Shown piece after piece: positions 1 through 61,646 of a stretch of DNA of 64,000 bases. Made by a program: the position numbers and the translations under genes. A model generated the notes under the pieces. That model saw only the letters and a program-made list of their open reading frames with translations, was not told the DNA's origin and ran no database searches. Source of the stretch: an uncultured Pseudomonadales bacterium (lineage in GTDB: Bacteria > Patescibacteriota > Microgenomatia > UBA1400 > PJMF01); assembly GCA_964412775.1 (NCBI GenBank), contig CAYPPX010000003.1, forward strand, positions 75,467 through 139,466, given 5' to 3'. Position 1 is the first letter of the stretch. Every line of letters starts with the position of its first letter.

Positions 1-92
1 ATTCCACGGTTATTCATTTCATTACACAGATTATAAGCAATTTTAGCAGCTCCACCCCTGTAATCATGAGTACTGATGAATAATATTTTCAT
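1..92 (-). CDS. Partial CDS, 5' end of a GT4-type glycosyltransferase; continues beyond the window
   Basis: Reverse-complement of 1..92 reads MKILFISTHDYRGGAAKIAYNLCNEMNNRG, a typical GT4 N-terminus. Its ATG overlaps the stop codon of the ORF at 89..874 (ATGA coupling). Confidence 0.5.
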   Translation of the reverse strand, partial: MKILFISTHDYRGGAAKIAYNLCNEMNNRG

Positions 93-2899: not shown

Positions 2900-3636
2900 T
2901 TTATTTTCTTTACGAAAGTTACATTTGCTACAGACAAAAGTCTATCTGTTTTAATAAATATGTTTATTAATTTATCTAAGAGTTTAAATATTAAATAAAA
3001 AAATCTCTTAACATAAGGAAATTTATTTTTTTTGTGCCATATGTTTATTATTTTTTCGTTATATTTTGTAAACATCCATGGCTCTAAAACTACTCTTTGT
3101 TTTCTCATTTCTAATAGTTGGTCTGAATATTTATTAATTTCATTAAAAAGCTCATTAGGTTCCCAACAATAAACATGGTGTGGGTCAGTATTCCAAATAA
3201 CAGAATACTTTGAAGGAGATTTAATAATTCCAACACCCCCTGGCTCTAGTACTCTAATAATTTCTTTTACATAAAATTTACCAGTTTTTTTATCTAAATG
3301 TTCTATAACTTGATTCATTAAAACAAAAGAAAAATAATTATCTTTAAACGGTAATTTTTTATTATTTTCTAAAAAAAACTTTTTTACATTAACTTTCTTT
3401 TTGAGCAATGTAGCATAACCATAATTAGATCCTTCTAAGGCATAAACCTTGTAAGGGTAATTTTTAAGAGCTTCAATAAAAGATCCAACACCACTCCCTA
3501 TATCTAATATTCTTTGGAAACTCTTACCTTTATAGTTGATTTTTGCCTCATTTAATATATTTAAATAACTATAAATATTAACATCAGAATAGTATGTTTC
3601 TAATTTTTTCTCTAAAATACCTTTTTTATTTATCAT
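2896..3636 (-). CDS. Class I SAM-dependent methyltransferase
   Basis: ILDIGSGVGSFIEAL glycine-rich SAM-binding motif I, with downstream acidic motif II. Confidence 0.7.
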   Translation of the reverse strand: MINKKGILEKKLETYYSDVNIYSYLNILNEAKINYKGKSFQRILDIGSGVGSFIEALKNYPYKVYALEGSNYGYATLLKKKVNVKKFFLENNKKLPFKDNYFSFVLMNQVIEHLDKKTGKFYVKEIIRVLEPGGVGIIKSPSKYSVIWNTDPHHVYCWEPNELFNEINKYSDQLLEMRKQRVVLEPWMFTKYNEKIINIWHKKNKFPYVKRFFYLIFKLLDKLINIFIKTDRLLSVANVTFVKKIK

Positions 3637-3641
3637 TTTAT

Positions 3642-5783: not shown

Positions 5784-5784
5784 A

Positions 5785-6528
5785 CTAATTTAGTAAATAA
5801 ATTTTAAAATTTTGAGTTTCTTTTATTAAGTTGTAATTTATATTTAATTCTAATTGTTCAATATAATTTTTATTATCTATTAAATTTTGTTTTTTACCCT
5901 TAATAATTTCTTCTCTGGTTGATTTATTAAAAATAATTTTAGTCCCATAAATATTAGTGAAGAAGTCCTTGTAGTTATTTTCACTTTTTTCTTGAATAAA
6001 GCAGTTAATATTATATTTTTTGAGTGTATTTTCTAAACCTAAAATATTAACATCTGAAACAAATTCTTTTGATTCTAAGATCTGGTTACCATTAATTTCT
6101 TCTGAATCAATAATTGGTGCGTAATAAGAATATGTATTTATACTATAAATGCATCTATTAAAACTATTAGTATTATTCTTAACGTACTCCTTTATTTCTA
6201 TGTAATTTATTCTATAAAATGACATTATTTCTAGGACTTTTATTTTCGAAATAAATAAAAAATAAGTAGTTATGATAATACTAACAATAAAATAAATATA
6301 GAAACTAACTTTACGGATTTTATTTATTAAAACGTATAGTGATATTAAAATAGGGATAATCAAAAAAATGTTGTAATAATTATGTATATAAATTACTTTA
6401 GAAGCTATTACTAAATAGGATAAAAAAGAACCTAAAATAGAAATTATAAAAATATCAGATTTTTGTTTAATTTCTTTGCTTATTATTATTTTTGTAAATG
6501 AAATAATAGCTAAAAAAAATAAAAACAT
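5785..6528 (-). pseudogene. Probable C-terminal part of the same membrane protein as 6467..7780 (frameshift, or a separate small membrane protein)
   Basis: Start codon is embedded in (A)8T(A)5CAT(A)6. Two TM helices then a ~150 aa soluble domain, matching the layout of the other GT-C/YfhO-like genes here. Confidence 0.3.
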
Positions 6529-7780
6529 AAAAAATTATTGGTTCAACGATAAAAACAAGTAAATTTTTAAATATTTTTTCATACATTGGTAAGTAAAAAA
6601 TTAAGTTTTTACTAGTAAGAAAATCGTCTGCATAAAAGAAAATTTTTTCTTTTAACAAAAATAAAGAAATTGAAGATATAGATATTAAAAATATAGAAAA
6701 GAAATATATAGTTTTTACAGGTAGTTTATTTAATTTTTTAAATAAAAATTCATTTGTAAATTTGTAAATCAAAATTATAGTTATAAACCATATGAAGTTA
6801 TTTAAAATATTTTGATATAGGCTTATTTTTGAATAATTAAAAACCACTAAAACTAGAGGTATAAATTGGCCTAAAGATAAAAATAGAAATATAAAGTTTT
6901 CTATAATTGTTTTTTTATAATTTTTATTATTCTTTAGAAAAGAACTAATAAACACTATTGGATATGTCCATATAAAAATTGAGCTTTTTGTAATTGTTCC
7001 TATTCCTAATGTTATTGCAGATAAAATTAAATATTTAACATTTCTATTTTTTTGATATTTTTCAAATAAAATTAATGATAAAAAAGTAAAAGTAATCAAA
7101 AGCGAATCTATAACAGTAACGTAATGAGAAAAATTTATAATTGGATTAAGTGCTATAACAGAAGTTGCTAGCACGGATGTGAAATAAGAAACTTTTTTAG
7201 ATAAATAAATGTAAATTAGTGTTAGATTTGTTATTAACAATAAGTGTAAAAATATCCTTGTTGCCAGTTCAATAGGTATATTTAAAAAATAATAAGTACT
7301 AGCTAACAACCATTCAAAAATTGGAAAATGATTTAGATCTAATTTTTCACCTTCCAAGTTGGAAACATTATTTAAATAATACTTTTTTTGGTAGTTAAAA
7401 ATATTTTTACTTTTGACAATATAGTTAGCTGGTTCTACGTAAGCGGCATATTTCATTGGGTGGTCAGTAGTAAATGGTGTATTAAAAAATTTAACCCTAA
7501 AAATAGTTAGAAATATAAAGAAAATAATAAGTAAAAAATTACTTATTACTCTTTCTCTTTTTAAAAAAAATTGTTCAATAGTAGATTCTTTTTTATTAGC
7601 TATTAAATATTTAAAATATTTATCAGAAAAAATTAATGTAACTGTTATTAGTGCTAAAAATGTAATTAATTTGAAAAATATTATTTCAACATAAAAGTTG
7701 ATTTTAAAAAAACTTAAAAAACTAATAGATAAACTAATAAAAACTAAAATTTTAATTATTTGTTGTAATTTTTTTTTCAT
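6467..7780 (-). CDS. Polytopic membrane protein, probable N-terminal part of a frameshift-interrupted GT-C-like gene
   Basis: More than 10 predicted TM helices. ORF ends in an A8/T8 homopolymer tract and overlaps the next ORF by 62 nt in another frame. Confidence 0.4.
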   Translation of the reverse strand: MKKKLQQIIKILVFISLSISFLSFFKINFYVEIIFFKLITFLALITVTLIFSDKYFKYLIANKKESTIEQFFLKRERVISNFLLIIFFIFLTIFRVKFFNTPFTTDHPMKYAAYVEPANYIVKSKNIFNYQKKYYLNNVSNLEGEKLDLNHFPIFEWLLASTYYFLNIPIELATRIFLHLLLITNLTLIYIYLSKKVSYFTSVLATSVIALNPIINFSHYVTVIDSLLITFTFLSLILFEKYQKNRNVKYLILSAITLGIGTITKSSIFIWTYPIVFISSFLKNNKNYKKTIIENFIFLFLSLGQFIPLVLVVFNYSKISLYQNILNNFIWFITIILIYKFTNEFLFKKLNKLPVKTIYFFSIFLISISSISLFLLKEKIFFYADDFLTSKNLIFYLPMYEKIFKNLLVFIVEPIIFYVFIFFSYYFIYKNNNKQRN

Positions 7781-8382
7781 TTTACTTCAAAAAACAACAG
7801 GTTTTTTTGTTTATTATCTTTTTTATTTTTTATAAATAATTCTTTTTTACCTTTATCCATCACCGGTACCTCAAAAACCACCTCTTTATCACTCCATTTT
7901 TTTATATTCATTTCTGCACCATCTAAATACACTTTTCCAGGCTCATGAGGCTCACCAAAGTTCTTACCAGTAATTCTCACTAAACTCCCCTGGATTCCCC
8001 AATCATTACTGAGTTTTTTGATTTTGGGGTATTGTTGTAAATCACTGTAAAAATGTGTGTATTGGTTATGAAAAAATAGAGTTATTAAGAATAACCCAAC
8101 AATAAAAAAATTAATTTTTGGCCATTTTATTAGCTGATTTTTAATACTAACAAGTGAAAATATAACTATTAGTAGTAAAAGATAAATAGTTGTGTATTTA
8201 TAATTTAAGCTATCATAAAGCCACCAATACTCAGTAGTTAAATACTGAAAAACATCAACCGTAACTAGAAAAATAGTTAAAATTATTAAACTTAGCAACA
8301 ACTCAGGTAGTAACTTAGACCAACTGAACTCAGTTGTTGTCTGTGGTTTCTTTGATTTCATAAAACTTGGGATTATAGGCAC
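7777..8382 (-). CDS. Small membrane protein (3-4 TM) with C-terminal IPT/TIG-like domain
   Basis: GSLVRITGKNFGEPHEPGKVYLDGAEMNIKKWSDKEVVFEVP matches the IPT/TIG consensus (G..I.G.NF....V.....A......S...I...VP). Confidence 0.5.
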   Translation of the reverse strand: MPIIPSFMKSKKPQTTTEFSWSKLLPELLLSLIILTIFLVTVDVFQYLTTEYWWLYDSLNYKYTTIYLLLLIVIFSLVSIKNQLIKWPKINFFIVGLFLITLFFHNQYTHFYSDLQQYPKIKKLSNDWGIQGSLVRITGKNFGEPHEPGKVYLDGAEMNIKKWSDKEVVFEVPVMDKGKKELFIKNKKDNKQKNLLFFEVK

Positions 8383-21983: not shown

Positions 21984-23819
21984 TTACATTTCCTCTGGTG
22001 TTTGCACACCCAGTAAACCCAAACCATATTCCAAAACATTAGCAGTTGCTTGAGTCAGAACAGTTCTTCTTTCTCTGGCATCAGAGTTTTCAGCATTAAT
22101 AATTTGGTGAGTATTATAAAAAGCATTAAAACGTTGAGCCAATTCAAAAAGGTAACCAGCTAAGTGATGAGGGGCAAACTCAGCGGCTGCTTTTTCTACT
22201 AACTCAACAAAACGATCTAAATGACGAGCTAAATTTAGCTCAACAGCATCTAATTTCCAAGAATCATCACCAAAAGCTGGTGAAAACTCTTCTAGAGCGG
22301 CTTTTCTCAACACACTTTTGGCTCTAACAGCCGCGTATTGAACATAAGGGCCGGAATTACCCTTCATACTGAGAATTTCATCCCAATCAAAAATAATATC
22401 GCGACTGGTTTCACTTTTGAGATCATTCCATTTCAAAGCACCAATGGCCACAGCATCGGTAGAACTCATTAATGAAGAAGGTCTTAATGTTTTTGGTCTA
22501 TTTGATGATCTAGAAATTACTTCTGTGTCTTTAAACTCTAAAGTATGTTTTGACATTAAACGAGCTCGTTTTTTGGCTTCATCAATTACATCTTCCAACC
22601 AAATCACATTACCTTTTCTAGTCGACATTTTTTTGTCTTTAAAGCGGTATAAACCATGTTTTACATGAACTCTTTGGCCTGGTTGATACCAACCCATGAT
22701 TTGTTCGACGGCATAGATCTGTTGAAAATATAAAGCTTGTTCAGCACCGACTTCATTCACAATTAAGTCTGGTTTTTCTTTTTTCAACCTATAGTAATCA
22801 GTGGCAAAATCTCGAGTGGAATACAAAGTAGCGCCATCTTGCTTCAACACCATTAGTGGCGGATATTGATCATTTTCAAAGAAAATTAATTTTGCACCAT
22901 TTTCACCTTCAGCACAATGAGCTCCATTAGTTACTGCATCCTCTGGAGTAAGCTTAGACTCTAGCAATTTAACTACTTCAGTCATTTTATCTTCAAAAAA
23001 TGACTCACCGTAACCTCGACCATTATTTTCTGAAAAAGATACTCCTAATTCACCATAAATTTGTTGAAATTCTTGCCAAGATAAATCAATACACCATTGC
23101 CATAATGCTTTGGCTTCTGGATCACCTTCTTCTAGTTTTTTAAACCAAGCTCGACCAGCATTTTCAATTTCTGGTTCTTTTTCAGCCTCATCATGAAATT
23201 TAACATATAGTTGAACTAACTCTTTAATTGGTCGGTCTGACTTTGCAATTTCTGCTTGTTTACCCCAAGTTTTAATTGCATAGATTAATTTACCGAATTG
23301 AGTACCCCAATCACCAAGATGGTTATCTCTCAAAACCTGCCAACCAATCGCTTCATAAAGATTAGCGATCGCATCACCAATAATTGTCGAACGTAAATGA
23401 CCCACCGTAAACGGCTTAGCAATGTTGGGTGAAGAATACTCAACGATTACTTTCTTGGCTTTATTTTTTGTGGTTAATTCTTTAAATAAAGCTTGAGGTT
23501 TAGTTTCAGCTAGTTTAATTGTCTGGGTGCGAAAATATTCATGAGCCAATTTAAAGTTAATAAAACCTGGTCCAGCAATCTCAATCTGCCAAACTTCAGG
23601 CAATTCAGCTAAATTACTTTTCAATTCACTAACAATCTTTTCGGCTAGGGCTCGAGGATTATTAAAACCTTCAATTTGCTTGCAATATTGTAAAGCAACA
23701 TTAGTGCTCCAATCACCATGATTTTCATCGGCTGGATGTTCTAAGTTAACTCTGGGATTAGTAATCCCTAAGTTTATTAAAACAGCATTGATTTGTTGAT
23801 GTAATGAATTAACTAACAT
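21984..23819 (-). CDS. argS: Arginine--tRNA ligase
   Basis: N-terminal add-1 domain, class I HIGH-region equivalent (PNIAKPFTVGHLRST), DALR anticodon-binding domain at the C-terminus. Confidence 0.85.
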   Translation of the reverse strand: MLVNSLHQQINAVLINLGITNPRVNLEHPADENHGDWSTNVALQYCKQIEGFNNPRALAEKIVSELKSNLAELPEVWQIEIAGPGFINFKLAHEYFRTQTIKLAETKPQALFKELTTKNKAKKVIVEYSSPNIAKPFTVGHLRSTIIGDAIANLYEAIGWQVLRDNHLGDWGTQFGKLIYAIKTWGKQAEIAKSDRPIKELVQLYVKFHDEAEKEPEIENAGRAWFKKLEEGDPEAKALWQWCIDLSWQEFQQIYGELGVSFSENNGRGYGESFFEDKMTEVVKLLESKLTPEDAVTNGAHCAEGENGAKLIFFENDQYPPLMVLKQDGATLYSTRDFATDYYRLKKEKPDLIVNEVGAEQALYFQQIYAVEQIMGWYQPGQRVHVKHGLYRFKDKKMSTRKGNVIWLEDVIDEAKKRARLMSKHTLEFKDTEVISRSSNRPKTLRPSSLMSSTDAVAIGALKWNDLKSETSRDIIFDWDEILSMKGNSGPYVQYAAVRAKSVLRKAALEEFSPAFGDDSWKLDAVELNLARHLDRFVELVEKAAAEFAPHHLAGYLFELAQRFNAFYNTHQIINAENSDARERRTVLTQATANVLEYGLGLLGVQTPEEM

Positions 23820-23982
23820 ACCTACTCAGATTATATCGTCTAAGAGGTCGACAAGAAAGGGTAAAGATAAAAACTTAATTAAATTTTTACCATAATTTAT
23901 GGTAGGAAAAATCTAAAGTTAAAAAGGTTTAAGACGAGAAATAGTTGTTTTTAGACTCTTAAACCCTGGTAAAGCAAACGTG

Positions 23983-24012
23983 AAGGGGAAACAACAGTTG
24001 TGTCTCCCCTTC
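23983..24012 (-). terminator. GC-rich stem-loop, possible terminator of the lipoprotein gene / insulator before the argS promoter
   Basis: GAAGGGGA...TCCCCTTC perfect 8-bp stem, extendable through ACAAC/GTTGT, flanked by A-rich and T-rich tracts. Orientation is ambiguous. Confidence 0.35.
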
Positions 24013-24046
24013 AGTTTTTATTCAATTGTTAGCCAGGAAGAACTGC

Positions 24047-25111
24047 TTATTCAGCAGTCAACCACATGGCCAGCGGTGGCTTGAAACCAGCAGGAGCAAA
24101 CCTTTGGTCGCCAATCCAGATACGGGCAAAGTTGCTAGCTCCACCCTTTTCATTGTCCAGATAGAGCTGACTGGATGGTTTACCCTGCAGGGTTTGGCGG
24201 CTGAACATCAGTTCCAAGTAGGCATTCGCCATACTTACTGCCCAAGCCTCTTTTTCGGTGGCATTACTGCCACGAAGAGAAGTGTAGACATACCCAGAGC
24301 CATTGACCATGCCTGCGGGACAAACCTCGGCGAAGTTAAATTTCTGCCCGGGGTTAACGAACACCTGGAACACACTGCGTTGGTCCTTGATACCGGGGTA
24401 CTCAGGCTTGCCCTTTTCACAGGTAATCATGAATGAAGCAAATTGCGCTTCATCCAGCCAGATAACATCAGGCTGGGTCTCGGCCTTTTCTGCCTCCAGG
24501 ATCATGCCTTTGAGGGAGACGAATGTCGACTGGTACCAATCTGCATTGGCAGTAACATCAGTCCAGGTTCCTAGTGGGGCTGTGTAGTAGCTCCATCCTT
24601 CAGGCAAGCCGCGCTTAACCATTCCAGGCAACATTCCGCTGATTTCCAATGGTGAGTAATACAGCGAATCATTGGGAAATAAATCCGCTGCCGCTGCAAA
24701 AGCGTCGCCACGGTCATCACCAGGCTTCAACTGCACCAAAGTCAATTTGTTGTCCTCGCTAATAGCTGGGGCTTCCAGCTGGTAGTTTGGCGCAACAATG
24801 ACTGTTTTTCCCCCAGCATTCAGTAGCGTCCAGGCATTATAGGGGCCCAAGACGTCATTGAAGTTGTAGGTATTGATGGCGCTGGTTGGAGTTGCTGATG
24901 GAGTTCCAGTTGGCAAATCAGTCGCTGTCAAAGCGACCACCGTCCCCTGTTCCGTTCTGGTGGGTAACGGTGTTGCCACATCTGGCGTTGAAGTAGGCTC
25001 TGGCGTATTGGTAGCCAGACTTGGGGTCTGAGCGCCAAGTTGACAGCCACTCAGACAAACCAGCAACAAAATCGTGATGAAGATGCTGGTTTTGGGGTAG
25101 TTTGTGAACAT
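24047..25111 (-). CDS. Secreted lipoprotein with Pro/Thr-rich linker; compositionally foreign (GC about 50 %)
   Basis: Signal peptide with lipobox LSGC, then TPEPTSTPDVATPLPT...TGTPSATPTS linker. GC is sharply higher than its flanks. Confidence 0.6.
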   Translation of the reverse strand: MFTNYPKTSIFITILLLVCLSGCQLGAQTPSLATNTPEPTSTPDVATPLPTRTEQGTVVALTATDLPTGTPSATPTSAINTYNFNDVLGPYNAWTLLNAGGKTVIVAPNYQLEAPAISEDNKLTLVQLKPGDDRGDAFAAAADLFPNDSLYYSPLEISGMLPGMVKRGLPEGWSYYTAPLGTWTDVTANADWYQSTFVSLKGMILEAEKAETQPDVIWLDEAQFASFMITCEKGKPEYPGIKDQRSVFQVFVNPGQKFNFAEVCPAGMVNGSGYVYTSLRGSNATEKEAWAVSMANAYLELMFSRQTLQGKPSSQLYLDNEKGGASNFARIWIGDQRFAPAGFKPPLAMWLTAE

Positions 25112-25346
25112 AGTTCACCTCTTTCTCCAAAGTTTGAGTCATGAACAAGTCCTGCCCATGCCAGCCACCCTTTGGGAGTGACTAGCTTGGCAAGACTTGA
25201 CTATTTCTCGTCTTGTTAAAGAACTTCACTTGCCCCAAATTAGAACCGCAAAAAAAGAAGGCTCCACTTGAGTAAGTGAAACCTCCATTATATCGCGTCC
25301 TTATAACTTTTTCAACTGGACTATATTTTATAAACTATTTCAATAA

Positions 25347-25640
25347 TTATTCTTTAATAATTTGTTCATCTGGATGAATAACAAATTCTTTCATCATGGC
25401 AGCAATAATACTTAATAATACTGCCATATCGCTTTCAATAGTTTTATCTTCTTTTAATGGAATTAATTCTTCTCTCAGAAAAAAATTGCTTAAACAAACA
25501 ATCATTCCCGGATCATCTAAATCTTCAACTCGATCAACTATGGCCATGAGTGATTCATATTGAGCACTCAGCCCTTTTTCTTTCATGACTCCAGCTAATT
25601 TTTCAGCTGCGGCTCTTAATCCTTGTTCGCTTCCAGGCAT
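25347..25640 (-). CDS. Small acidic hypothetical protein (97 aa)
   Basis: ORF in the same operon as the three upstream small ORFs. No recognisable motif. Confidence 0.4.
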   Translation of the reverse strand: MPGSEQGLRAAAEKLAGVMKEKGLSAQYESLMAIVDRVEDLDDPGMIVCLSNFFLREELIPLKEDKTIESDMAVLLSIIAAMMKEFVIHPDEQIIKE

Positions 25641-25725
25641 AAACGCTCTTTCTCGGCAGGTTAATATTGAGTAATTATACCCCCAAACACAAAATGTTGT
25701 ATATTTTTGAAAAAATTTATAAAAA

Positions 25726-25989
25726 TCAGGTTGTTTCAGCCTGTTTAAGCTTATTTGCCAATTCAGCCATTAAGTCAGCATAAGTATCAGCGTCTATCTC
25801 TTGTAGAACGATAGTCACTTCAGCAATTTCCAAAAAACTGATAAATTCTTGCAAAGAATAAACATTTTCATTGTAGTCAAGCCACCATAAAAAAGTTGTC
25901 AAACTATCAGCCAAATGACGATCAAGTAGTTCTGCAACTAACTTTTCTGTTTTTAATCTTAAACTAGTCTTTTCTCTTGGTTCAATCAT
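25726..25989 (-). CDS. Small acidic hypothetical protein (87 aa)
   Basis: ORF in tandem with the other small acidic ORFs. No recognisable motif. Confidence 0.4.
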   Translation of the reverse strand: MIEPREKTSLRLKTEKLVAELLDRHLADSLTTFLWWLDYNENVYSLQEFISFLEIAEVTIVLQEIDADTYADLMAELANKLKQAETT

Positions 25990-25991
25990 GA

Positions 25992-26408
25992 TTATTTTTT
26001 GGCTGTTGATGTTTCTTCTGCTAAAACATCAGCAACTAATTGTGCAAAAAGCTTATAAGTTTCTTCTAAATTAGCTTTAGCTATTTCATCTTTAACTACA
26101 TCCATTTCAAGCGTAATTTGCAGAACCTGATATAAACGATGGGCAAAATCATAAGAAGCTTTGGTCATTAAACCTTCTAGACAAGTTAAAATCTCGGTCG
26201 ATTCCCTTGTTTTTCCAGCTTTGGCTAAAGCCTCAACTACCGGCACTAACTTAATAGAAACAACCTCTAATTCTTTACTAACTTCTTCTGGAATTCGACC
26301 ATTAATCAGTTCTAAATATAGCATTAAGGTTTCAACACTCTTAAAAATTCCCAAATCACTAAGTAAACTTTCATAACCATCCTTCAAAAGCTGAAGCATG
26401 GCATGCAT
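25992..26408 (-). CDS. Acidic helical hypothetical protein (138 aa)
   Basis: ORF in tandem with the other small acidic ORFs. Its ATG overlaps the stop codon of the unlisted upstream 53-aa ORF (TAAATG). Confidence 0.4.
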   Translation of the reverse strand: MHAMLQLLKDGYESLLSDLGIFKSVETLMLYLELINGRIPEEVSKELEVVSIKLVPVVEALAKAGKTRESTEILTCLEGLMTKASYDFAHRLYQVLQITLEMDVVKDEIAKANLEETYKLFAQLVADVLAEETSTAKK

Positions 26409-36656: not shown

Positions 36657-37547
36657 ATGATTAATATTGCTACTAACCAACCACCAACTAGTACTACTAG
36701 TGTCCCTCCACAACAACCAATGATGAGCGCCCCTCCTGTACAAGAAGCTTCAGCTCAACAACCTCAACCACCCTTGCCTTCAGAAAAAAAGAAAAGTAAT
36801 TTTCTACTAATTGGTGGAATTATCTTGGCTATTTTAGCTATTGGTGGTCTTGCCAGTATGTTCTTGGTTCAACAACCTCAAGAAATTCGTCAACAAGCCA
36901 CCCAGTGTCAAGAGCAATGTCCAGGTAATGATGGAGTTCTAAGAAACTGTACTCCACCAGAATCAGATGGGTCATCCCAAGATAGTACTTGTAATGTCAA
37001 AGGTAGAGTTGAGTCGTGTGGTGGCAGAGAGTATTGTTGTCCTTCTCCAGGTGGTGCTTGGACAACCAATATGACTGCTTGTGCTACCCCAACCCCAGAA
37101 CCAAGTCCAACAGAAATACCTGGTTTATGTTCTAGTGACTCTGTAGCTGACTGTCGTTCTCTTGACCCAGGTGATTATTGTAATAACGGTGCTGGTGAAT
37201 GTACAACCGATGGCACTAAAGGTGCTGACGATAAAGATGTTTGTACCTGTCAAGCAGAGCCAACCCCCACAACAGAGCCTACTTCTGCTCCAACCACTGC
37301 ACCTACTACTGCCCCAACAACCTCTCCAACGACTGCTCCAACGACTGCGCCTACTACTTCAGCAACTACAGCCCCGACCGTTGCTCCAACAACAGCCCCT
37401 ACCACCGCTGTAGCAGCTACCACTGCTCCAACTCAGCCACCATTGCCTTCTCAGCTGCCAGAGACAGGCCCAGCTGACTGGCTAAGAAACCTATCAATTG
37501 GTCTTGGTGCATTAGGTGCTGGAGCATTACTATTCTTGTTCTTATAA
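36657..37547 (+). CDS. Cys-rich, Pro/Thr-repeat cell-surface protein with C-terminal LPETG plus hydrophobic segment (sortase-type anchor signal)
   Basis: N-terminal TM/signal anchor, about 20 Cys in the central domain, (A/S)PTT tandem repeats. LPETG is followed by a 20-aa hydrophobic stretch at the extreme C-terminus. Confidence 0.6.
   Translation: MINIATNQPPTSTTSVPPQQPMMSAPPVQEASAQQPQPPLPSEKKKSNFLLIGGIILAILAIGGLASMFLVQQPQEIRQQATQCQEQCPGNDGVLRNCTPPESDGSSQDSTCNVKGRVESCGGREYCCPSPGGAWTTNMTACATPTPEPSPTEIPGLCSSDSVADCRSLDPGDYCNNGAGECTTDGTKGADDKDVCTCQAEPTPTTEPTSAPTTAPTTAPTTSPTTAPTTAPTTSATTAPTVAPTTAPTTAVAATTAPTQPPLPSQLPETGPADWLRNLSIGLGALGAGALLFLFL
37270..37430 (+). repeat. Imperfect tandem 12-bp repeat encoding (A/S)PTT
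   Basis: Visible as repeating ccaacNactgcNcc units. It spawns spurious alternative-frame ORFs (37162..37413, 37241..37477). Confidence 0.7.
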
Positions 37548-38655: not shown

Positions 38656-40351
38656 ACTAATTCCTTGGCTACTAAGTTTCGGAGTAATTTTGGTGGTAAT
38701 TTCAAGATTAATTATTCCAACCAAGATAAACCAAGGCATGTGGTATATCTTTGATGATGTTCATACCGTTAGAACTAATGAAATGGTTAATGAACTAAAA
38801 AATGGTCAATTCCCAGTTCGTTATCTAGGAAATCTAGCCTTTAAAAGGGGCTACCTGTTATTTAATTTTTATTCTCCCTTAGTTTATTACTTGACTAGTG
38901 CTTTAGTTTTCATTGGTAAATCACCACTCAATGCAGTTAAAAATGTTTTTCAGCTTAGCTATCTAATTGCTGGAAGTGGCATGTTCTTGTTACTAAAACA
39001 CTATTTTCCCAAAAAATGGTTTTTGCCAATTTTAGGCAGTATCCTACTGATTAGTAGCCCCTACTTTAATTACAATATCTACACTAGAGGTGCTCTTGCA
39101 GAAGTTTGGGGCTTTGCCTTAATCCCTTGGCTATTTCTTGCTTATGAATTAATTAAAAAACACAAAAGTAATTTAGCAATTGTTCTCTTCTCAGTTATAG
39201 CCAGCTTGATGTTTTACGTTCATGCCATCAGCGCTTTTATTGCCATTCCTTTATTATTAGTCAAATTTTTGATCGAATGGCAAATAACTAAACAAATAAG
39301 TAAAGAGATTTTTAAAAGGTACTTTTTGAGTTCGATTATTGGTTTTGCTCTGAGTGCTAGCTACTTACTGCCAGTTATTTTCGAAAAAAACCAAGTTATC
39401 TACTCAAATGTTGAGTTTGTAGTCAGTGGTTTTAAAACTGGTTTTGTAAACTTCAATGAACTAATTGGCTTGAGTAAAAACGCTGATCCGAAAATTATTC
39501 CTATTACTCTCGGTAAAACTTTAGCCATCTCAACCTTGATCTCCATAATCATTGTTTTTTATAAACTAGTAAAAAAATCACAACTAAAACTAAAAAACGA
39601 GTTTACTACTAATTTAATACTAATAGTTATTACTAGCTTTATTTTGCTTAAGCCAAGTAGTTTTATTTGGGAAAACAATCCTCTCTTACAAATGACTCAA
39701 TTTCCCTATAGATTCATGATTTTGCTAACTTTTTTAAGTGTTCTCTTCATTATCATAACCTTAAATTTAGTTAAAAATAATTTTCTAAAAATAATTTTTG
39801 GCTTAGTGATTCTACTTAGTAGTTTTTATGGTAATAAAATTTTCTATCAACCTAGTGGCTACTACTTTGCTGGTAACTTTGAAGCAGCAGATCTTTGTGC
39901 CACTACAACCTGGCAAGCAGAATACTTGCCAAAATGGGCCACTAACTGTGCTACTTTGAACTCACCTAAACAAGAAATCAGAGTAAACACTGGAGAAATT
40001 GAGGTGACTAATTCAAGGTTTAATTCCAACAATCTAGAAGTTGAAATTGAAACCAACGGTAAAAGTGGTACTTTGGAAGTTGATCGTTACTTTTATCCTG
40101 GCTGGCAAGCTAAAACTTTTGAAAAAAACCTAACTATTAAACCGGTCGATAATCTGGGTATTATCAAAATTGAAGTACCTGAAAATACCAACTTTATTAA
40201 GCTAACGTTTCAAGATACTTTAATTAGAAAAATTGGTAATTTATTAACTTTAAGTTCAATCATCAGCATCTTGATCATTGCTTTAATTGAAATTATTAAA
40301 TACAAAAAAATTTATCTAAGTGGGTTATTCACATCAAAAAAAGCAGCCTGA
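38636..40351 (+). CDS. Large membrane protein, YfhO-like paralog family A
   Basis: DDVHTVRTNEMVNELKNGQFPVRYLGNL N-terminal motif and C-terminal RYFYPGWQA beta-domain. Confidence 0.5.
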   Translation: MLKKVTKLIPWLLSFGVILVVISRLIIPTKINQGMWYIFDDVHTVRTNEMVNELKNGQFPVRYLGNLAFKRGYLLFNFYSPLVYYLTSALVFIGKSPLNAVKNVFQLSYLIAGSGMFLLLKHYFPKKWFLPILGSILLISSPYFNYNIYTRGALAEVWGFALIPWLFLAYELIKKHKSNLAIVLFSVIASLMFYVHAISAFIAIPLLLVKFLIEWQITKQISKEIFKRYFLSSIIGFALSASYLLPVIFEKNQVIYSNVEFVVSGFKTGFVNFNELIGLSKNADPKIIPITLGKTLAISTLISIIIVFYKLVKKSQLKLKNEFTTNLILIVITSFILLKPSSFIWENNPLLQMTQFPYRFMILLTFLSVLFIIITLNLVKNNFLKIIFGLVILLSSFYGNKIFYQPSGYYFAGNFEAADLCATTTWQAEYLPKWATNCATLNSPKQEIRVNTGEIEVTNSRFNSNNLEVEIETNGKSGTLEVDRYFYPGWQAKTFEKNLTIKPVDNLGIIKIEVPENTNFIKLTFQDTLIRKIGNLLTLSSIISILIIALIEIIKYKKIYLSGLFTSKKAA

Positions 40352-41658
40352 TTCCAATAAGTAGTTGCGTCCATGGTTAAAGCTACAAAAATGTTGGTGA
40401 CAATTAGTAATAACAAAATTAAAAAATAAATAAATTTACTTATTTTCTTTAGATTTAGGCTCTCAAACAAAACTGGTAAAAAACCAACTGAAAAAATGCC
40501 TCTCATTGACCAAATAGATAAAGATTCTAGTAAGTTTAGTTTCAAAAAAGCTAAATTGAATAGCGGTAACAATAATAACCATGTCATTCCAGCCAGTAAC
40601 CAAAGCCTTTTTTCTTGAATTAATTTAATTAACTCAACCAGATTGATAATTAAAGTTGGCCACAATAAATAATCATACCAGCCATGATAAGTTGTCCCTC
40701 CTACAGAAAACAAGATAAAAACTAAGTTAATTAAAAATGTAATATTTAAAAATAAATATTTTTTATCTTTGTTAGCAAGCATAAGAATTGAAGCAAAAAA
40801 ACCTAAAATTTTCCAACCATCAAATAATAAGTGTCTGATCACCACCGGATGAATAAATAGCCGATTTTGGAGGGTTACAAAACTTAAATCCCTGGTAGAT
40901 TGACTTGAAAGTAACTTCAAAAATAATGAAAAATCATAAATTGCTCCATAAATAAAAAATAAACTAATGCCTACCAGTAAACCAAATAAACTTGCTTTGA
41001 ATAATTTCCAATTTTTTTCTAAAAAAGCATAAGCCAAAATTGAAACTGGAATCACTAAACCAGCAACTTTTGTCAAAACTGCTAGCAAACTTAAGATAAA
41101 AACTAATTTAATCGACCATTTTTTGTCTAAATTAAACACTGCACAATAGGCTAAAATTGTCCAAGTAACTAATAAATTTTCAGCCACCACTAACCGGCTA
41201 CCAAAAACCAATGTTGGAATAGTGATAAACAAAGTCGTTGCTAATAAAGAAAATCTTTTCTTGCTAAAAAATTTATCAACCACTAACCAAAATAAACCAA
41301 CATTTAGTGCTCCCAATAAAATCATCGGGAAACGAACTAATTTAGCCGAAGGAAAATCTAACCAATGAGCTTTTAAACTTTGAGCTAATCCTGGTAACAA
41401 AGAAAACAATGGTGGATGATCAAAAGCTGGTCTAACAACTGGTGCATCATAAACTCCAGTTTTGTAAATGTATTTATCTTCATAATCAGTAAAATATGAC
41501 CAAGAGGCAGGAACTTTTTCTTGAATTAACGAAGCACCAAGCATCGTCCAAGCCCATTCATCAGCTGTTTCACCAAAAACAGGAAAGTGATAATAATTAT
41601 AAACTCTAATTAAAAATCCTATGATTACCAACAATAAAAAAATAGCTATTTTCTTCAT
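40312..41658 (-). CDS. PMT-family (GT39-like) membrane glycosyltransferase
   Basis: PAFDHPPLFSLLPGL motif, polytopic. Confidence 0.5.
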   Translation of the reverse strand: MKKIAIFLLLVIIGFLIRVYNYYHFPVFGETADEWAWTMLGASLIQEKVPASWSYFTDYEDKYIYKTGVYDAPVVRPAFDHPPLFSLLPGLAQSLKAHWLDFPSAKLVRFPMILLGALNVGLFWLVVDKFFSKKRFSLLATTLFITIPTLVFGSRLVVAENLLVTWTILAYCAVFNLDKKWSIKLVFILSLLAVLTKVAGLVIPVSILAYAFLEKNWKLFKASLFGLLVGISLFFIYGAIYDFSLFLKLLSSQSTRDLSFVTLQNRLFIHPVVIRHLLFDGWKILGFFASILMLANKDKKYLFLNITFLINLVFILFSVGGTTYHGWYDYLLWPTLIINLVELIKLIQEKRLWLLAGMTWLLLLPLFNLAFLKLNLLESLSIWSMRGIFSVGFLPVLFESLNLKKISKFIYFLILLLLIVTNIFVALTMDATTYWNQAAFFDVNNPLR

Positions 41659-60208: not shown

Positions 60209-60280
60209 TCCCGGGTAGTGAAGTGGCATCACCACAGGTTCTGACCCTGTTATCCTAGGTTCGAATCCTAGCCCGGGATC
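60209..60280 (+). tRNA. tRNA-Gln (anticodon CUG)
   Basis: Hand-folded cloverleaf: 7-bp acceptor stem (TCCCGGG/CCCGGGA with U1-A72, as in bacterial tRNA-Gln), 4-bp D stem, 5-bp anticodon stem. Loop TTCTGAC has U33 and A37. T-arm CTAGG-TTCGAAT-CCTAG. CCA is not encoded. Confidence 0.8.
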
Positions 60281-60391
60281 AAAAAAATAATTAGCCAAAC
60301 TTGGTTAATACATCTAATGATAATTAAATTTTCCAGCAAGAAAAACCTCGAATTATAACCTAAACTCATTTTTATTAAAAATAAAAAACAA

Positions 60392-60429: not shown

Positions 60430-60512
60430 TAAGGGTTATTTCTTCTCTGGAAGAATGAAACATTTTTCATTTATTTCGCAGAAAAATAATAGCACCTTAA
60501 CACGCAGTATCT

Positions 60513-60578: not shown

Positions 60579-61646
60579 ATGAAAAGACTCATACCAGTGA
60601 TTATCACTATTGCTATCCTCATAGCCGCCTGTGGTGGCAGTGACGGTGAGCAAGAAAATATCACTCAAGTAAGAGAATGTACACAAACCATCGTGTACGC
60701 AGTTTCTGACTCAGCAAACAATCTGGTTCAGAAATATGTAAGTCCAGAGCTTCATTCCCGCTGGGCCTGGAACTATGAAGAACAAAACTGGCAGTGGGAA
60801 AAGGTGAATGTTGAAGATTGGGATGCTTTTTTTGATCCCATCAATGCTGATATCGCTGAGGCTGAAGCGATGTTGGGCAAAATTTACGTAGATAACGAAC
60901 TAATTGATGGGCCGTATTTCTACAATGCCGACTATGGCTACTATTCTGGATACGACTCATTCGCAGAAACTACCTGTCCAGACTCTGACAGCCCGAACGT
61001 AGACTTAAGCAAGAACAACTACGACGATATCAAATGGACAGAACTCTATGTTCAGTATCCACGACAAAACTGTGAAGAAGTAGTTGACGACTACTGCACC
61101 AACATCACAAAAACAAGTACGGTAACCTACGTCAAGGTTACAACCCCAGGTGGTAGCCAAGTAAGTTATAGCTACCCCACACCTTGGATTGACCAGATTG
61201 TTTGGGCCGCCTTTGCTAATGGCCCTGCATTCGAATTTAATCCTGAATTCACCGACCCAAAGACTACCCTTGATGAGGAAGCCTATGCAACAGCCCTCCT
61301 CGACAGCTTGACCACTGATGCCTACCGAGAAGTAGCACAAGTCAACCTCAATTTTGCAGATTTTGAGGGACGTCAAGAAATCAAGGGAGTAATCATGCGC
61401 GCTCTAGAAGTTGCCGCAGTCGAAGAAGGCAAGCCTGCCTTCATGACAATTAAAGGCATGATGAGCAGTGGACAAACCTCCGTTGCTCATATTTCAGCCA
61501 CACGCAATGATATTCGTATCAGTGGCTGGATGTTTCTGGGTATGGGTGGTCTATCTGGTTCTGGTGGTGGTGGACAGTTGGAAATGGACTACTCCTCTAC
61601 CTTTGAGGATGTCGTCCGCGGGTCAATCTACATCATTGCCCCGTAA
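60579..61646 (+). CDS. Secreted lipoprotein, compositionally foreign (GC about 48 %); start trimmed to MKRLIPV
   Basis: Signal peptide with lipobox IAAC, Gly/Ser-rich C-terminus. GC is markedly above that of its flanks. Confidence 0.6.
   Translation: MKRLIPVIITIAILIAACGGSDGEQENITQVRECTQTIVYAVSDSANNLVQKYVSPELHSRWAWNYEEQNWQWEKVNVEDWDAFFDPINADIAEAEAMLGKIYVDNELIDGPYFYNADYGYYSGYDSFAETTCPDSDSPNVDLSKNNYDDIKWTELYVQYPRQNCEEVVDDYCTNITKTSTVTYVKVTTPGGSQVSYSYPTPWIDQIVWAAFANGPAFEFNPEFTDPKTTLDEEAYATALLDSLTTDAYREVAQVNLNFADFEGRQEIKGVIMRALEVAAVEEGKPAFMTIKGMMSSGQTSVAHISATRNDIRISGWMFLGMGGLSGSGGGGQLEMDYSSTFEDVVRGSIYIIAP

What the first reader, a model, noticed from the sequence alone, without database searches (positions are those of the whole stretch)
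24020..25300. GC-rich (about 50 %) island encoding a lipoprotein with a Pro/Thr-rich O-glycosylation-type linker
The ORF 24047..25111 and its flanks are strikingly GC-richer than neighbouring DNA. The product has a lipobox (LSGC) followed by a TPEPTSTP...TGTPSATPTS linker, the kind of segment mannosylated by Pmt enzymes in Actinobacteria. This points to a recently acquired gene from a higher-GC donor. A GC-rich hairpin (23983..24012) separates it from the argS promoter.
Basis: seen in the sequence. Interest (0 to 1): 0.55.

Follow-up and report, generated by a model that had tools for sequence, protein, structure and literature searches.

The report
Persistently GC-rich lipoprotein gene cassette
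A surface-lipoprotein gene in a tiny, AT-rich uncultured bacterium is a sharp GC-rich island, but relatives carry it at the same place with the same GC excess, a conserved folded RNA leader and matching motifs at both ends, so the odd composition is a maintained property of the gene's message, not a scar of recent gene transfer.

Summary
Window 24010-25260 is about 51% GC against 33% for the window. ORF 24047..25111(-) has GC3 0.55 against 0.25 +/- 0.06 for 52 other ORFs. Its product has a signal peptide, an LSGC lipobox and a Pro/Thr linker.

The family has only seven clusters among 1.8 billion representatives, all found on low-GC contigs. Four lineages keep the gene directly upstream of argS. 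Every member is a GC island (0.47-0.54 against about 0.36), although fourfold sites between lineages are close to saturation. In the closest pair, GC-to-AT and AT-to-GC changes are balanced (16:17). The window holds no mobility gene, and no GC-rich donor was found.

The island coincides with one transcription unit with conserved architecture:
- a promoter;
- an invariant motif, CTTTAACAAGACGAGAAA;
- a 52-nt leader hairpin supported by covariation, with no Rfam match;
- the coding sequence and a 3' hairpin;
- an inverted copy of the motif.

I favour selection on the mRNA: a structured, 5'-3' paired, stable message for a probably glycosylated surface protein. That mechanism is inferred, not shown. 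DNA inversion (phase variation) is the main rival. The protein's function is unknown.

The parts
25287..25315 (-). Promoter-like site, TTGAAA - 17 nt - TATAAT, at the AT-rich upstream edge of the island
   Evidence: It matches 11 of 12 consensus positions. It is conserved in position in all six aligned lineages, including two with a different or unknown genomic context (TTGAAA or TTGACA, then TATAAT, TAGAAT or TACAAT).
25247..25286 (-). Hairpin of 13 pairs followed by a U7 tract, directly after the -10 box. It may terminate transcription coming from upstream. A transcript from the cassette promoter would start inside its 5' arm (inferred).
   Evidence: Flagged as terminator-like. It is conserved, with changed stem sequences, in L001, L002, L004 and L007, and TTTTGCG is invariant in those lineages and L013; L016 keeps only TTGCG. 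I did not establish its role.
25200..25221 (-). 5' UTR motif CTTTAACAAGACGAGAAATAGT, the 5' arm of the inverted repeat
   Evidence: CTTTAACAAGACGAGAAA is identical in six lineages, and L016 differs at two positions. The core AAGACGAGAAA occurs exactly twice, inverted and flanking the gene, in every locus that holds both flanks, and nowhere else in up to 21 kb.
25147..25198 (-). Structured leader hairpin: P1 of 10 bp, an internal loop AA/AUG, and P2 of 10 bp
   Evidence: 97.5% of cells pair, against 31-47% when partners are slid. Nine of 20 pairs show compensatory changes, and 0 of 500 shuffles reach the covariation score. G-U pairs occur in the sense strand. No Rfam family matches. Model R1 finds it once per cassette.
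25116..25128 (-). Shine-Dalgarno region (GGAGAAAGAGGTG) ahead of the ATG at 25111
   Evidence: Read directly from the sequence. It is purine-rich at the same place in the orthologs.
25043..25111 (-). Signal peptide with lipobox LSGC (residues 1-23)
   Evidence: Translation. The lipobox Cys is invariant in 7 family members.
24881..25042 (-). Pro/Thr-rich linker of low conservation (residues 24-77)
   Evidence: Alignments A1 and A2. pLDDT is below 50 here, consistent with disorder.
24047..24880 (-). Globular alpha/beta domain of unknown fold (residues 78-354) with two invariant cysteines (C231, C264), plus the stop codon
23981..24013 (-). GC-rich hairpin after the stop codon. The U-tract on the sense side is weak or absent, while the antisense side has a T-tract in four of five lineages.
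   Evidence: The stem sequences differ between lineages but the hairpin is kept.
23928..23945 (+). Inverted copy of the motif, the 3' arm. It reads TTTAAGACGAGAAATAGT on the + strand, i.e. ACTATTTCTCGTCTTAAA on the gene's strand.
   Evidence: It is a perfect 15-nt inverted repeat with 25200-25214, where roughly 0.003 such repeats are expected by chance in 2.3 kb (my estimate). The core is invariant in five lineages. The bases next to the core change together in both arms: TAGT in the window, GT in L007, GA in L013. The predicted duplex is 13-15 bp at -20 to -22 kcal/mol in every lineage.

Best explanation
This is a native, vertically inherited gene of a small clade of Candidatus Pacebacteria (Candidate Phyla Radiation). 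It encodes a lipid-anchored cell-surface protein with a flexible Pro/Thr stalk and an uncharacterised globular domain of about 275 residues.

The GC-rich island is one transcription unit, running from just after its promoter to the 3' copy of a conserved motif. Its roughly 50% GC, with near-equal use of the four bases at synonymous sites, is held at equilibrium in every lineage. It is not decaying after a transfer.

The cause I think most likely is selection on the mRNA as a molecule. The message has a conserved structured 5' leader, a coding region that folds more stably than its synonymous shuffles, a stable 3' hairpin, and a 13-15 bp complementarity between the 5' UTR and the 3' end. Together these would close and protect the message from ribonucleases or direct its processing, giving a long-lived mRNA for an abundant envelope protein. 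The invariant core of the motif, and of leader helix P1 with its internal loop, implies that a sequence-specific factor also reads these elements.

Shown here: the composition, the synteny, synonymous sites close to saturation, the balanced substitutions, the cassette architecture and the leader covariation.

Inferred: that the 3' arm is transcribed, that the two arms pair in RNA, that RNA stability is the selected trait, that the linker is glycosylated by the neighbouring GT-C enzymes, and where the protein sits in the cell.
For: GC richness is a family trait, not an accident of this genome.
- Genes in seven lineages are 0.47-0.54 GC on contigs of 0.35-0.40. The seventh, L016, has only about 230 bp of flank, at 0.44.
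- GC at fourfold sites is 0.46-0.66, against 0.16-0.36 in the neighbouring argS and PMT_2 genes of the same genomes.

It is maintained rather than decaying.
- Fourfold-site identity between lineages is 0.20-0.42 where 0.24-0.28 is expected at saturation.
- Between the window and its 96%-identical relative, polarised changes are 16 GC-to-AT against 17 AT-to-GC, and unpolarised state pairs are 27 against 27.

Inheritance is vertical.
- Three orthologs lie directly upstream of argS and two PMT_2 genes, and a fourth (L002) is followed by the conserved argS promoter region.
- argS identity is 0.73-0.78 across these lineages.
- No mobility genes are encoded in 64 kb.

The island equals the transcript.
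- The 5' UTR is 0.44 GC, the leader hairpin 0.57 and the 3' UTR 0.42. The promoter region and the spacer to argS are both 0.27.

RNA-level signals.
- The leader hairpin has 9 of 20 compensatory pairs and G-U pairs on the sense strand.
- The z-score of folding energy against synonymous shuffles is -3.5 to -8.5 in six lineages, against a mean of -0.9 (sd 1.3, minimum -3.9) for 33 control genes.
- A 13-15 bp duplex between the 5' and 3' motifs is possible in every lineage, and the positions flanking the core co-vary.

A second case. An unrelated GC-rich lipoprotein family, lipo2, shows an analogous complementarity between 5' UTR and 3' UTR. It is kept by changes on both arms and includes a U-G pair in L093.

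Precedent. [quoted passage not shown] In S. aureus icaR, pairing of the 5' and 3' UTRs creates an RNase III substrate (PMC7821165).
Against: - No transcript data exist, so the promoter, the transcript ends and the inclusion of the 3' arm (which lies 36 nt beyond the 3' hairpin) are all inferred.
- Pairing alone does not explain why the core of the motif is invariant while leader helix P2 covaries freely.
- The window gene's structure z-score (-3.2 to -3.5) is within the tail of the controls, two of which are at or below -3.6. The shuffle also does not preserve dinucleotides across codon boundaries.
- I could not test codon-level translational selection, because the window has no ribosomal-protein genes to serve as a reference.
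- The T-tract of the 3' hairpin lies on the antisense side, which the mRNA model does not predict.
- An ancient transfer into the clade's ancestor cannot be excluded. It would not, however, explain the persistence of the GC excess.
Confidence: 0.45

Rival explanations
1. Invertible gene segment (phase variation). The two inverted motif copies are sites for a site-specific recombinase. Inversion would detach the leader hairpin, ribosome-binding site and coding sequence from the fixed promoter. Transcription would then run into the 3' hairpin in the orientation in which a T-tract follows it, switching the surface lipoprotein off.
For: - The inverted repeat is perfect, and its core is sequence-invariant across lineages with 34-96% protein identity, as expected for a recombinase binding and crossover site.
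- The bases next to the core are identical in both arms within a lineage but differ between lineages, as homogenisation by recombination would give.
- The 5' arm lies between the promoter and the RBS, and the 3' arm lies beyond the hairpin.
- The hairpin's T-tract is on the antisense side in four of five lineages.
- Read in antisense, the 3' end resembles 'motif then hairpin' (weak R1 hit, 17.6 bits).
- Surface lipoproteins are classic phase-variable products (general knowledge).
Against: - Every contig recovered for the family has the gene in the 'on' orientation relative to its outside flanks. That covers seven lineages and about 20 contigs from many samples.
- No recombinase is encoded in the 64-kb window, and no recombinase family appears among the precomputed Pfam hits for genes within 10 kb in L001, L004, L007 or the P0006 contigs.
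- Inversion does not explain the GC richness.
- In the analogous lipo2 cassette the 3' arm lies before the terminator, and one arm pair includes a U-G (T versus C) difference. That fits RNA pairing better than DNA identity.
Confidence: 0.17
2. Horizontal acquisition from a higher-GC donor. Either the transfer was recent in this genome, or it happened repeatedly and independently in each lineage as a self-contained cassette that targets the same site.
For: - The compositional boundaries are sharp and include the non-coding flanks.
- The unit is self-contained, with its own promoter and a 3' hairpin, in the manner of a moron.
- The same cassette, with leader and both motif copies, occurs in a different genomic context in the P0006 lineage.
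- The family is very patchy, with seven clusters among 1.8 billion representatives.
Against: - The gene is syntenic in four lineages whose argS proteins are only 73-78% identical.
- No homolog was found in any GC-rich genome.
- Substitutions in the youngest pair are balanced, 16:17. Amelioration at 50% GC under this genome's bias would give roughly 3.5:1 GC-to-AT changes (the expected ratio is my estimate from the fourfold composition).
- GC excess at fourfold sites does not shrink with divergence.
- There is no integrase, transposase, tRNA gene or direct repeat at the borders.
- The gene's topology does not conflict with that of argS and PMT_2.
Confidence: 0.08
3. GC-biased gene conversion at a recombination hot spot. 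The surface-protein locus would be exchanged often between strains, and GC-biased repair of heteroduplex DNA would drive GC up at all sites, including the flanks.
For: - GC is raised at all three codon positions and in the UTRs.
- Base use at fourfold sites is near-uniform with no consistent codon preference across lineages, which argues against translational selection.
- The protein evolves faster than its neighbours, 37-59% identity against 62-78%.
- A link between recombination and GC3 in bacteria has been reported; I recall this from the literature and did not check it here.
Against: - The size of the effect, +0.25 to +0.4 in GC at fourfold sites, is far larger than effects reported for bacteria (from memory).
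- The boundaries coincide with a transcript, not with a recombination tract.
- Synonymous divergence between the window and L001 is no higher than in the neighbours: fourfold identity 0.86 against 0.77-0.82.
- It does not explain the conserved leader or the motif pair.
Confidence: 0.08
4. The two motif copies are not partners of each other. They would instead be two binding sites for the same trans-acting factor (an RNA-binding protein or a small RNA). Alternatively the 3' copy belongs to a small RNA transcribed on the + strand that ends at the shared hairpin plus T-tract and mimics the 5' UTR motif as a decoy.
For: - The core sequence is invariant in both copies.
- On the + strand the hairpin 23981-24013 is followed by TTTTTATT, which is a proper intrinsic terminator in that direction.
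- On the + strand the 3' copy reads the same as the 5' UTR motif.
- Both unrelated lipoprotein leaders share C(T/C)TTAACA.
Against: - No consensus promoter was found on the + strand upstream of 23931.
- The AT-rich spacer that would hold such a promoter is not conserved, and part of it is deleted in L002.
- The 8-mer CYTTAACA is not enriched in the window: 8 found, 10 expected.
- This model does not predict the co-variation of the positions flanking the core in the two arms.
Confidence: 0.1

Closest known systems
[quoted passage not shown]
   Same: There is a complementarity of 13-15 nt between the 5' leader and the region after the stop codon of the same gene. The leader is highly structured and the 3' hairpin is stable. 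The predicted duplex is -20 to -22 kcal/mol.
   Different: - Here the arms are sequence-invariant across lineages with protein identity down to 34%. The review PMC7821165 notes that known functional 3'UTRs, hbs included, are generally not conserved even among close relatives.
- The 3' arm lies beyond the 3' hairpin.
- The 5' arm does not overlap the ribosome-binding site, unlike icaR.
- The whole message is compositionally distinct from the genome.
- No experimental evidence exists here.
Invertons and phase-variable surface lipoproteins (invertible DNA segments flanked by short inverted repeats; from general knowledge, for example Bacteroides promoter invertons and Mycoplasma lipoprotein switches)
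   Same: A short perfect inverted repeat flanks a unit that controls expression of a surface lipoprotein, and the promoter lies outside one arm.
   Different: The segment would hold the whole 1.25-kb gene rather than a promoter. Only one orientation is seen in about 20 contigs. No recombinase gene is nearby.
Genomic islands and morons acquired by horizontal transfer
   Same: A single self-contained transcription unit whose base composition is sharply different from its surroundings.
   Different: The gene is syntenic in diverged relatives, compositionally at equilibrium, without mobility genes, direct repeats or a tRNA gene at its borders, and without a detectable donor.
Actinobacterial lipoglycoproteins O-mannosylated by Pmt (GT39) on Thr/Pro-rich linkers (from general knowledge)
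   Same: The product combines a lipobox with a Pro/Thr-rich linker. Many GT-C glycosyltransferases and a polyprenol-phosphate-sugar-synthase-like enzyme are encoded around it.
   Different: The neighbouring enzymes match PMT_2 (PF13231), not the Pmt family PF02366; the single PF02366 hit is below threshold. The organism belongs to the Candidate Phyla Radiation. Glycosylation has not been tested.
Borrelia vls antigenic-variation locus (a GC-rich surface-lipoprotein locus in an AT-rich genome; recalled from memory)
   Same: A surface-lipoprotein gene whose high GC content, in an AT-rich genome, is conserved as a property of the locus.
   Different: Here there are no silent cassettes or paralogous fragments, and no repeat in the region beyond the 15-nt motif pair. 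There is no strong GC skew, about 0 within the island. The gene is single-copy.

Membership tests
Bacterial lipoprotein (Lgt/LspA substrate) | An N-terminal signal peptide with a positive n-region and a hydrophobic core, then a lipobox [LVI][ASTVI][GAS]C | tested here: met
   The product starts MFTNYPKTSIFITILLLVCLSGC. The lipobox variants are LSGC, LSAC, LPAC, LVAC and ASAC, and the Cys is invariant in 7 members.
Bacterial lipoprotein (Lgt/LspA substrate) | The genome encodes Lgt and signal peptidase II | not tested
   Neither is encoded in the 64-kb window. The rest of the genome was not available.
Pmt-type O-mannosylated lipoglycoprotein | A Ser/Thr/Pro-rich, disordered acceptor segment exposed outside the membrane | tested here: met
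   The Pro/Thr-rich stretch covers roughly residues 30-77, is poorly conserved, and has pLDDT below 50.
Pmt-type O-mannosylated lipoglycoprotein | A GT39 protein O-mannosyltransferase (Pfam PMT, PF02366) and a polyprenol-phosphate-mannose synthase in the genome | tested here: inconclusive
   About ten proteins hit PMT_2 (PF13231). Only one also hits PF02366, at 20.5 bits, below the 22.7 cut-off (window 40312-41658). A GT2+GtrA_DPMS_TM protein lies at 52453-53619.
Pmt-type O-mannosylated lipoglycoprotein | Glycan demonstrated on the protein | not testable with these tools
   This needs glycoproteomics.
Recently acquired genomic island | Base composition and codon usage deviate from the host genome | tested here: met
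   GC is 0.51 against 0.33, and GC3 is about 5 sd above the other ORFs.
Recently acquired genomic island | Absent from close relatives, or at a different place in them | tested here: not met
   Relatives at 96, 59 and 37% protein identity carry it directly upstream of argS, and the 66% relative (L002) is followed by the conserved argS promoter region.
Recently acquired genomic island | Mobility signatures: an integrase or transposase, a tRNA gene at the border, flanking direct repeats | tested here: not met
   No such gene is found in 64 kb. The only tRNA gene is at 60209-60280. The flanking repeat is inverted, not direct.
Recently acquired genomic island | Composition decaying toward that of the host (amelioration) | tested here: not met
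   GC at fourfold sites is 0.46-0.66 in all lineages despite near-saturated sites. GC-to-AT and AT-to-GC changes are 16:17 in the youngest pair.
mRNA with a 5'UTR-3'UTR interaction (hbs / icaR type) | A complementary stretch of about 7-14 nt or more between the 5' leader and the 3' region of the same gene | tested here: met
   13-15 bp in all five lineages with both flanks, at -20 to -22 kcal/mol.
mRNA with a 5'UTR-3'UTR interaction (hbs / icaR type) | Both arms lie on one transcript and pair in vivo, with an effect on RNase cleavage or translation | not testable with these tools
   There are no transcript data. The 3' arm lies 36 nt beyond a hairpin whose sense-side U-tract is weak or absent.
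Inverton (invertible DNA segment) | Inverted repeats flanking the segment | tested here: met
   A 15-nt perfect inverted repeat at 23931-23945 and 25200-25214, conserved in all lineages.
Inverton (invertible DNA segment) | Both orientations present in sequence data | tested here: not met
   All assembled contigs, about 20 from 7 lineages, show one orientation. Raw reads were not available, so low-frequency inversion is not excluded.
Inverton (invertible DNA segment) | A site-specific recombinase encoded nearby or elsewhere in the genome | tested here: not met
   None is encoded in the window or listed in the flanks of L001, L004, L007 or the P0006 contigs. The rest of the genome was not examined.
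Any described RNA family (Rfam 15) | The leader matches a curated covariance model at its gathering score | tested here: not met
   The only hit is a chance-level hairpin match to mir-6644 (26-27 bits against a gathering score of 82) in the window and in L006.

The most novel reading that the evidence does not exclude
Some Candidate Phyla Radiation bacteria may encode certain surface lipoproteins on a previously undescribed kind of 'armoured' message. This would be a self-contained cassette whose whole transcript is kept at rRNA-like base composition in a 33%-GC genome. It would carry a new conserved leader RNA (an invariant 18-nt motif plus a two-helix hairpin with a conserved AA/AUG internal loop). 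It would be closed by a sequence-invariant helix between its 5' and 3' ends that a dedicated factor recognises. Two unrelated lipoprotein families in this genome, lipo1 and lipo2, would be instances of the same strategy.
Probability: 0.3. Interest if true: 0.75.

Novelty: new variant of a known kind. Interest (0 to 1): 0.6.

Why it matters
First, this is a clean counter-example to the routine inference that a GC-deviant gene was recently transferred. The deviation here is a stable, inherited and presumably selected property of a single gene, which matters for island-prediction methods and for reading CPR genomes.

Second, it defines a candidate new cis-regulatory RNA, with good covariation support and no Rfam match. 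It also gives the most deeply conserved candidate I know of for a bacterial 5'-3' UTR interaction; the few known examples are species-specific.

Third, it points to a specific, testable surface protein embedded in the large envelope-glycosylation region of an uncultured episymbiont lineage. Surface molecules of such lineages are the likely mediators of host attachment, and almost nothing about them is characterised.

If the rival explanation (DNA inversion) is right instead, this would be an example of phase variation in CPR bacteria.

Tried and rejected
- Protein annotation gave nothing. Pfam and NCBIfam found no family; the only hit was a signal-peptide-level match at E = 0.22. PHROGs found nothing. 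A PDB profile search matched only the signal or linker region at E >= 0.29.
- Searching for more family members did not enlarge the family. A profile search added no true members. The GTDB genome scan found one mis-binned 1.5-kb contig.
- The motif does not mark other cargo genes. Of 44 metagenome hits to the 18-mer, only one (L050, the P0005 lineage) is a true cassette, and none of the 29 viral hits is one.
- Adenine-targeted hypermutation of the kind made by diversity-generating retroelements was considered and dropped. Synonymous divergence between the window and L001 is not elevated, and there is no adenine-specific depletion.
- Translational selection could not be tested properly, because the window has no ribosomal genes. 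Codon preferences are inconsistent between lineages.
- An RNAduplex z-test on 130-nt UTRs was uninformative, because long interior loops dominate the result. One earlier run of it timed out.
- Polarising substitutions with saturated outgroups is biased toward AT-to-GC in the AT-rich control genes, so only the 50%-GC gene's counts are interpretable.
- lipo1 and lipo2 are not homologous proteins; hhalign aligns only the signal peptides.
- Alifold on the region between the promoter and the motif gave no convincing common structure, and my coordinates there were approximate.
Full report
**1. The observation**

The window averages 33.3% GC. The 1-kb bin 24001-25000 is 51.2% GC, and no other bin exceeds 41.8%. 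At 100-nt resolution GC climbs from 0.24-0.34 (23850-23999) to 0.48-0.56 across 24000-25249, then drops to 0.22-0.29 by 25300.

ORF 24047..25111(-) encodes 354 aa. Its GC1, GC2 and GC3 are 0.518, 0.473 and 0.549. The 52 other ORFs of at least 100 aa average 0.42, 0.33 and 0.255, with sd 0.056 for GC3, so this ORF lies about 5 sd out at the third position. Fourfold-degenerate sites use the four bases almost equally (A .22, C .30, G .21, T .27). Neighbouring genes are about 50% T there.

The product has a signal peptide, the lipobox LSGC and a Pro/Thr-rich segment. The hairpin near 23983-24012 exists, with 13 pairs at 24013..23981.

**2. Whose gene is it, and is it new to this genome?**

The family is tiny. 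A search of 5.8 billion clustered proteins returned three relatives at 96, 63 and 57% identity. An exhaustive phmmer pass over 1.84 billion representatives added three full-length members at 41, 36 and 26% identity, plus a fragment. A profile search added nothing credible. The 96% relative is annotated as coming from a Candidatus Pacebacteria metagenome-assembled genome. All full-length members share a lipobox with an invariant Cys, a Pro/Thr linker, and a domain of about 275 residues with two further invariant cysteines.

Genomic context decides the transfer question. In the 96%, 59% and 37% lineages (L001, L004/L005, L007-L012) the gene lies directly upstream of argS and the same two PMT_2 genes. 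In the 66% lineage (L002), whose contig ends in a partial downstream gene, the cassette is followed by the conserved argS promoter region. The argS proteins of the lineages with complete argS are only 73-78% identical, so the arrangement predates considerable divergence. The 34% lineage (L013-L015) carries the gene in a different neighbourhood.

**3. The GC excess is a maintained trait of the family**

- In every lineage the gene is 0.47-0.54 GC on contigs of 0.35-0.40. The seventh lineage, L016, has only about 230 bp of flank, at 0.44.
- GC at fourfold sites is 0.46-0.66, against 0.16-0.36 for argS and PMT_2 in the same genomes.
- Fourfold sites at conserved residues are nearly randomised between lineages: identity is 0.20-0.42 where 0.24-0.28 is expected at saturation. 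A single ancestral import that was ameliorating toward about 0.22 should by now have lost most of its excess in the deeper lineages. It has not.
- In the youngest comparison (window against L001, 60 differences), changes polarised by outgroups are 16 GC-to-AT against 17 AT-to-GC, and unpolarised state pairs are 27 against 27. For a 50%-GC sequence drifting under this genome's bias I would expect roughly 3.5 GC-to-AT changes per AT-to-GC change (my estimate).
- Synonymous divergence is not elevated: fourfold identity is 0.86, against 0.82 and 0.77 in the neighbours. Hypermutation is therefore not the cause.
- No homolog was found in any GC-rich genome.
- The 64-kb window encodes no integrase, transposase or recombinase. 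It is an almost unbroken envelope-glycan region: GT2 and GT4 enzymes, about ten PMT_2 GT-C enzymes, NDP-sugar epimerases and dehydratases, flippases, LytR-CpsA-Psr and a GT2+GtrA protein.

**4. The island is a transcription unit with a conserved cis-architecture**

Aligning the flanks from six lineages shows the following elements, in order on the gene's strand.

- **Promoter.** TTGAAA-17-TATAAT at 25315-25287 matches 11 of 12 consensus positions.
- **First hairpin.** A hairpin with a U7 tract lies at 25286-25247.
- **5' motif.** CTTTAACAAGACGAGAAA (25221-25204) is identical in six lineages and differs at two bases in the seventh.
- **Leader hairpin (25198-25147).** It has two helices. 97.5% of cells pair, against 31-47% in slid controls. 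Nine of 20 pairs show compensatory changes, no shuffle out of 500 reaches the observed covariation, and there are G-U pairs in the sense strand.
- **Ribosome-binding site and coding sequence.**
- **3' hairpin (24013-23981).** Its sequence differs between lineages but the stem is kept.
- **3' motif (23928-23945 on the + strand).** This is an inverted copy of the 5' motif.

The core AAGACGAGAAA occurs exactly twice, inverted and flanking the gene, in every locus that holds both flanks, including the lineage with a different genomic context. It occurs nowhere else in up to 21 kb. The two or four bases next to the core differ between lineages but are the same in both arms: TAGT in the window, GT in L007, GA in L013. 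The arms can form a 13-15 bp duplex of -20 to -22 kcal/mol in all lineages.

GC tracks these elements. The 5' UTR is 0.44, the leader hairpin 0.57 and the 3' UTR 0.42. The promoter region and the spacer to argS are both 0.27.

Rfam has no matching family. The motif is specific to this family: among 44 metagenome and 29 viral exact matches, only one is a real cassette, and it belongs to a lineage already known. A covariance model of motif plus hairpin finds one copy per cassette.

**5. Folding of the coding region**

I summed local folding energies of the coding sequence and compared them with shuffles that permute synonymous codons. The z-scores are -3.5, -4.3, -4.2, -5.0, -8.5 and -4.0 in six lineages. 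Thirty-three other genes of the window give a mean of -0.9, sd 1.3 and a minimum of -3.9.

Any single value is within the control tail. Six near-independent lineages all in that tail is suggestive. The shuffle does not preserve dinucleotides at codon boundaries.

**6. A second, unrelated case in the same window**

ORF 60579..61646(+), next to tRNA-Gln, encodes another lipoprotein (its signal peptide ends ...LIAAC). Its GC is 0.46 and GC3 is 0.45.

- Its family is also tiny.
- It is GC-rich relative to its flanks in relatives: 0.45-0.56 against 0.32-0.46.
- It is unrelated to the first family beyond the signal peptide.
- Its 5' UTR carries C(T/C)TTAACA followed by a long hairpin before the ribosome-binding site. 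That 5' motif is complementary to a sequence after the stop codon. The arm pairs are CTTAACACGC / GCGTGTTAAG in the window; TTTAAC..ACGC / GCGT..GTTAAA in L091; and TAACAtTTGCAGT / ACTGCAAgTGTTA in L093, which includes a U-G pair.
- In two lineages the sequence TTGCGACAC, part of the leader stem, recurs in the terminator loop.
- In this family the 3' arm lies before the terminator, so it is certainly on the transcript.

This parallel is what tips me toward an RNA-level reading for the first cassette. I examined it less thoroughly, and the fourth lineage (L094) lacks the pattern.

**7. Explanations**

*Favoured, about 0.45 for the full statement.* The gene is native, and its GC richness is selected through the mRNA: a structured, 5'-3' closed, nuclease-resistant or processed message for an abundant surface protein. 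Known analogues are hbs in B. subtilis (a 14-bp 5'/3' UTR interaction that modulates RNase Y cleavage, PMC5737220) and icaR in S. aureus (PMC7821165). Within this, I hold the statement 'not a recent import, composition maintained' at about 0.85. Weaknesses:
- there are no transcript data;
- the 3' arm lies beyond a hairpin;
- pairing alone does not explain the invariance of the core, so a sequence-specific factor must be assumed;
- the T-tract of the 3' hairpin sits on the antisense side.

*Main rival, about 0.17.* The arms are recombination sites of an invertible segment. This neatly explains the invariance, the arm homogenisation, the arm positions and the antisense T-tract. Against it:
- about 20 contigs from seven lineages all show one orientation;
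- no recombinase is nearby;
- it says nothing about GC content.

*Other rivals.* Repeated horizontal transfer, GC-biased gene conversion, and a shared trans-factor or decoy small RNA are each at or below 0.1.

**8. The protein**

By inference it is a lipid-anchored extracytoplasmic protein on a flexible, possibly O-glycosylated stalk. The glycosylation idea rests only on the linker composition and the surrounding GT-C-rich gene region. The one hit to the true Pmt family is below threshold.

**9. Verdict**

The lipoprotein and linker reading is right. The recent-transfer reading is not supported.

What is really there is a clade-restricted lipoprotein cassette. Its whole transcript is kept GC-balanced in an AT-rich genome. 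It carries a new covariation-supported leader RNA and a deeply conserved inverted motif pair at its two ends. This is a new variant of known kinds of system (5'/3' UTR interactions, structured leaders), with an unusual compositional signature. Interest is moderate to high and depends on experiments listed in the next steps.

Noticed in passing
window 60209-61710: A second GC-rich lipoprotein gene lies at 60579-61646(+), with GC 0.46 and GC3 0.45, next to tRNA-Gln(CTG) at 60209-60280. The protein family is unrelated to the first but equally rare, and it is also GC-rich in relatives (L091, L093, L094). Its 5' UTR motif CCTTAACACGC is complementary to GCGTGTTAAG just after the stop codon. TTGCGACAC occurs both in the leader stem and in the terminator loop.
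   Followed up: partly
window 1-8000: This block is very low in GC (18-29%, against 33-37% elsewhere). It encodes GT2, GT4, a methyltransferase, a flippase-GT2 fusion, a PMT_2 protein and a TIG-domain protein. It looks like a variable glycan-synthesis module with its own compositional history.
   Followed up: no
window 8300-58800: Almost the whole window is one envelope-glycan region. It holds about ten PMT_2 (GT-C) proteins, many GT2 and GT4 enzymes, six or more NDP-sugar epimerases or dehydratases, a UDP-glucose dehydrogenase, two Polysacc_synt flippases, LytR-CpsA-Psr, two PTPS_related membrane proteins and a GT2+GtrA/DPMS protein. argS and trmD are embedded in it. There are no mobility genes.
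   Followed up: partly
window 36657-37547 (+): This protein is rich in Pro, Thr and Ala, with APTT-type repeats and several Cys. It ends in LPETG followed by a hydrophobic tail, which marks a sortase-anchored surface protein. Its GC of 0.47 comes from GC2 of 0.62, while GC3 is an ordinary 0.24. It is a useful contrast showing that amino-acid composition alone does not raise GC3.
   Followed up: no
window 21984-23819 (-), residues about 419-455 of ArgS: The window's arginyl-tRNA synthetase is 24 residues longer than its 91%-identical ortholog in L001. The difference is a divergent inserted stretch (…LMSKHTLEFKDTEVISRSSNRPKTLRPSSLMSSTD…). It could be an indel or frameshift patch, or an assembly difference.
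   Followed up: no
L095 and L005 (both from sample SRR5011273): Two contigs carry the window-type and the 57%-type ortholog respectively, and both break exactly 19 nt upstream of the ATG. Two related strains probably co-occur, and the assembler stops at the leader sequence they share.
   Followed up: no
window 25347-26408 (-): Three small ORFs (97, 87 and 138 aa) lie upstream of the cassette. They have no Pfam match, and ORFs of similar size are called at the same position in L001. Small unannotated ORFs of other sizes occupy the corresponding place in L004 and L007; I did not test whether they are homologous.
   Followed up: no
L006 / L017 (CAZNOF010000030.1): A 1.5-kb contig carrying the 57% ortholog is binned in a MAG labelled 'uncultured Pseudomonadales'. 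Its flanks are 0.36 GC and it has the Pacebacteria-type cassette, so it is probably mis-binned.
   Followed up: no
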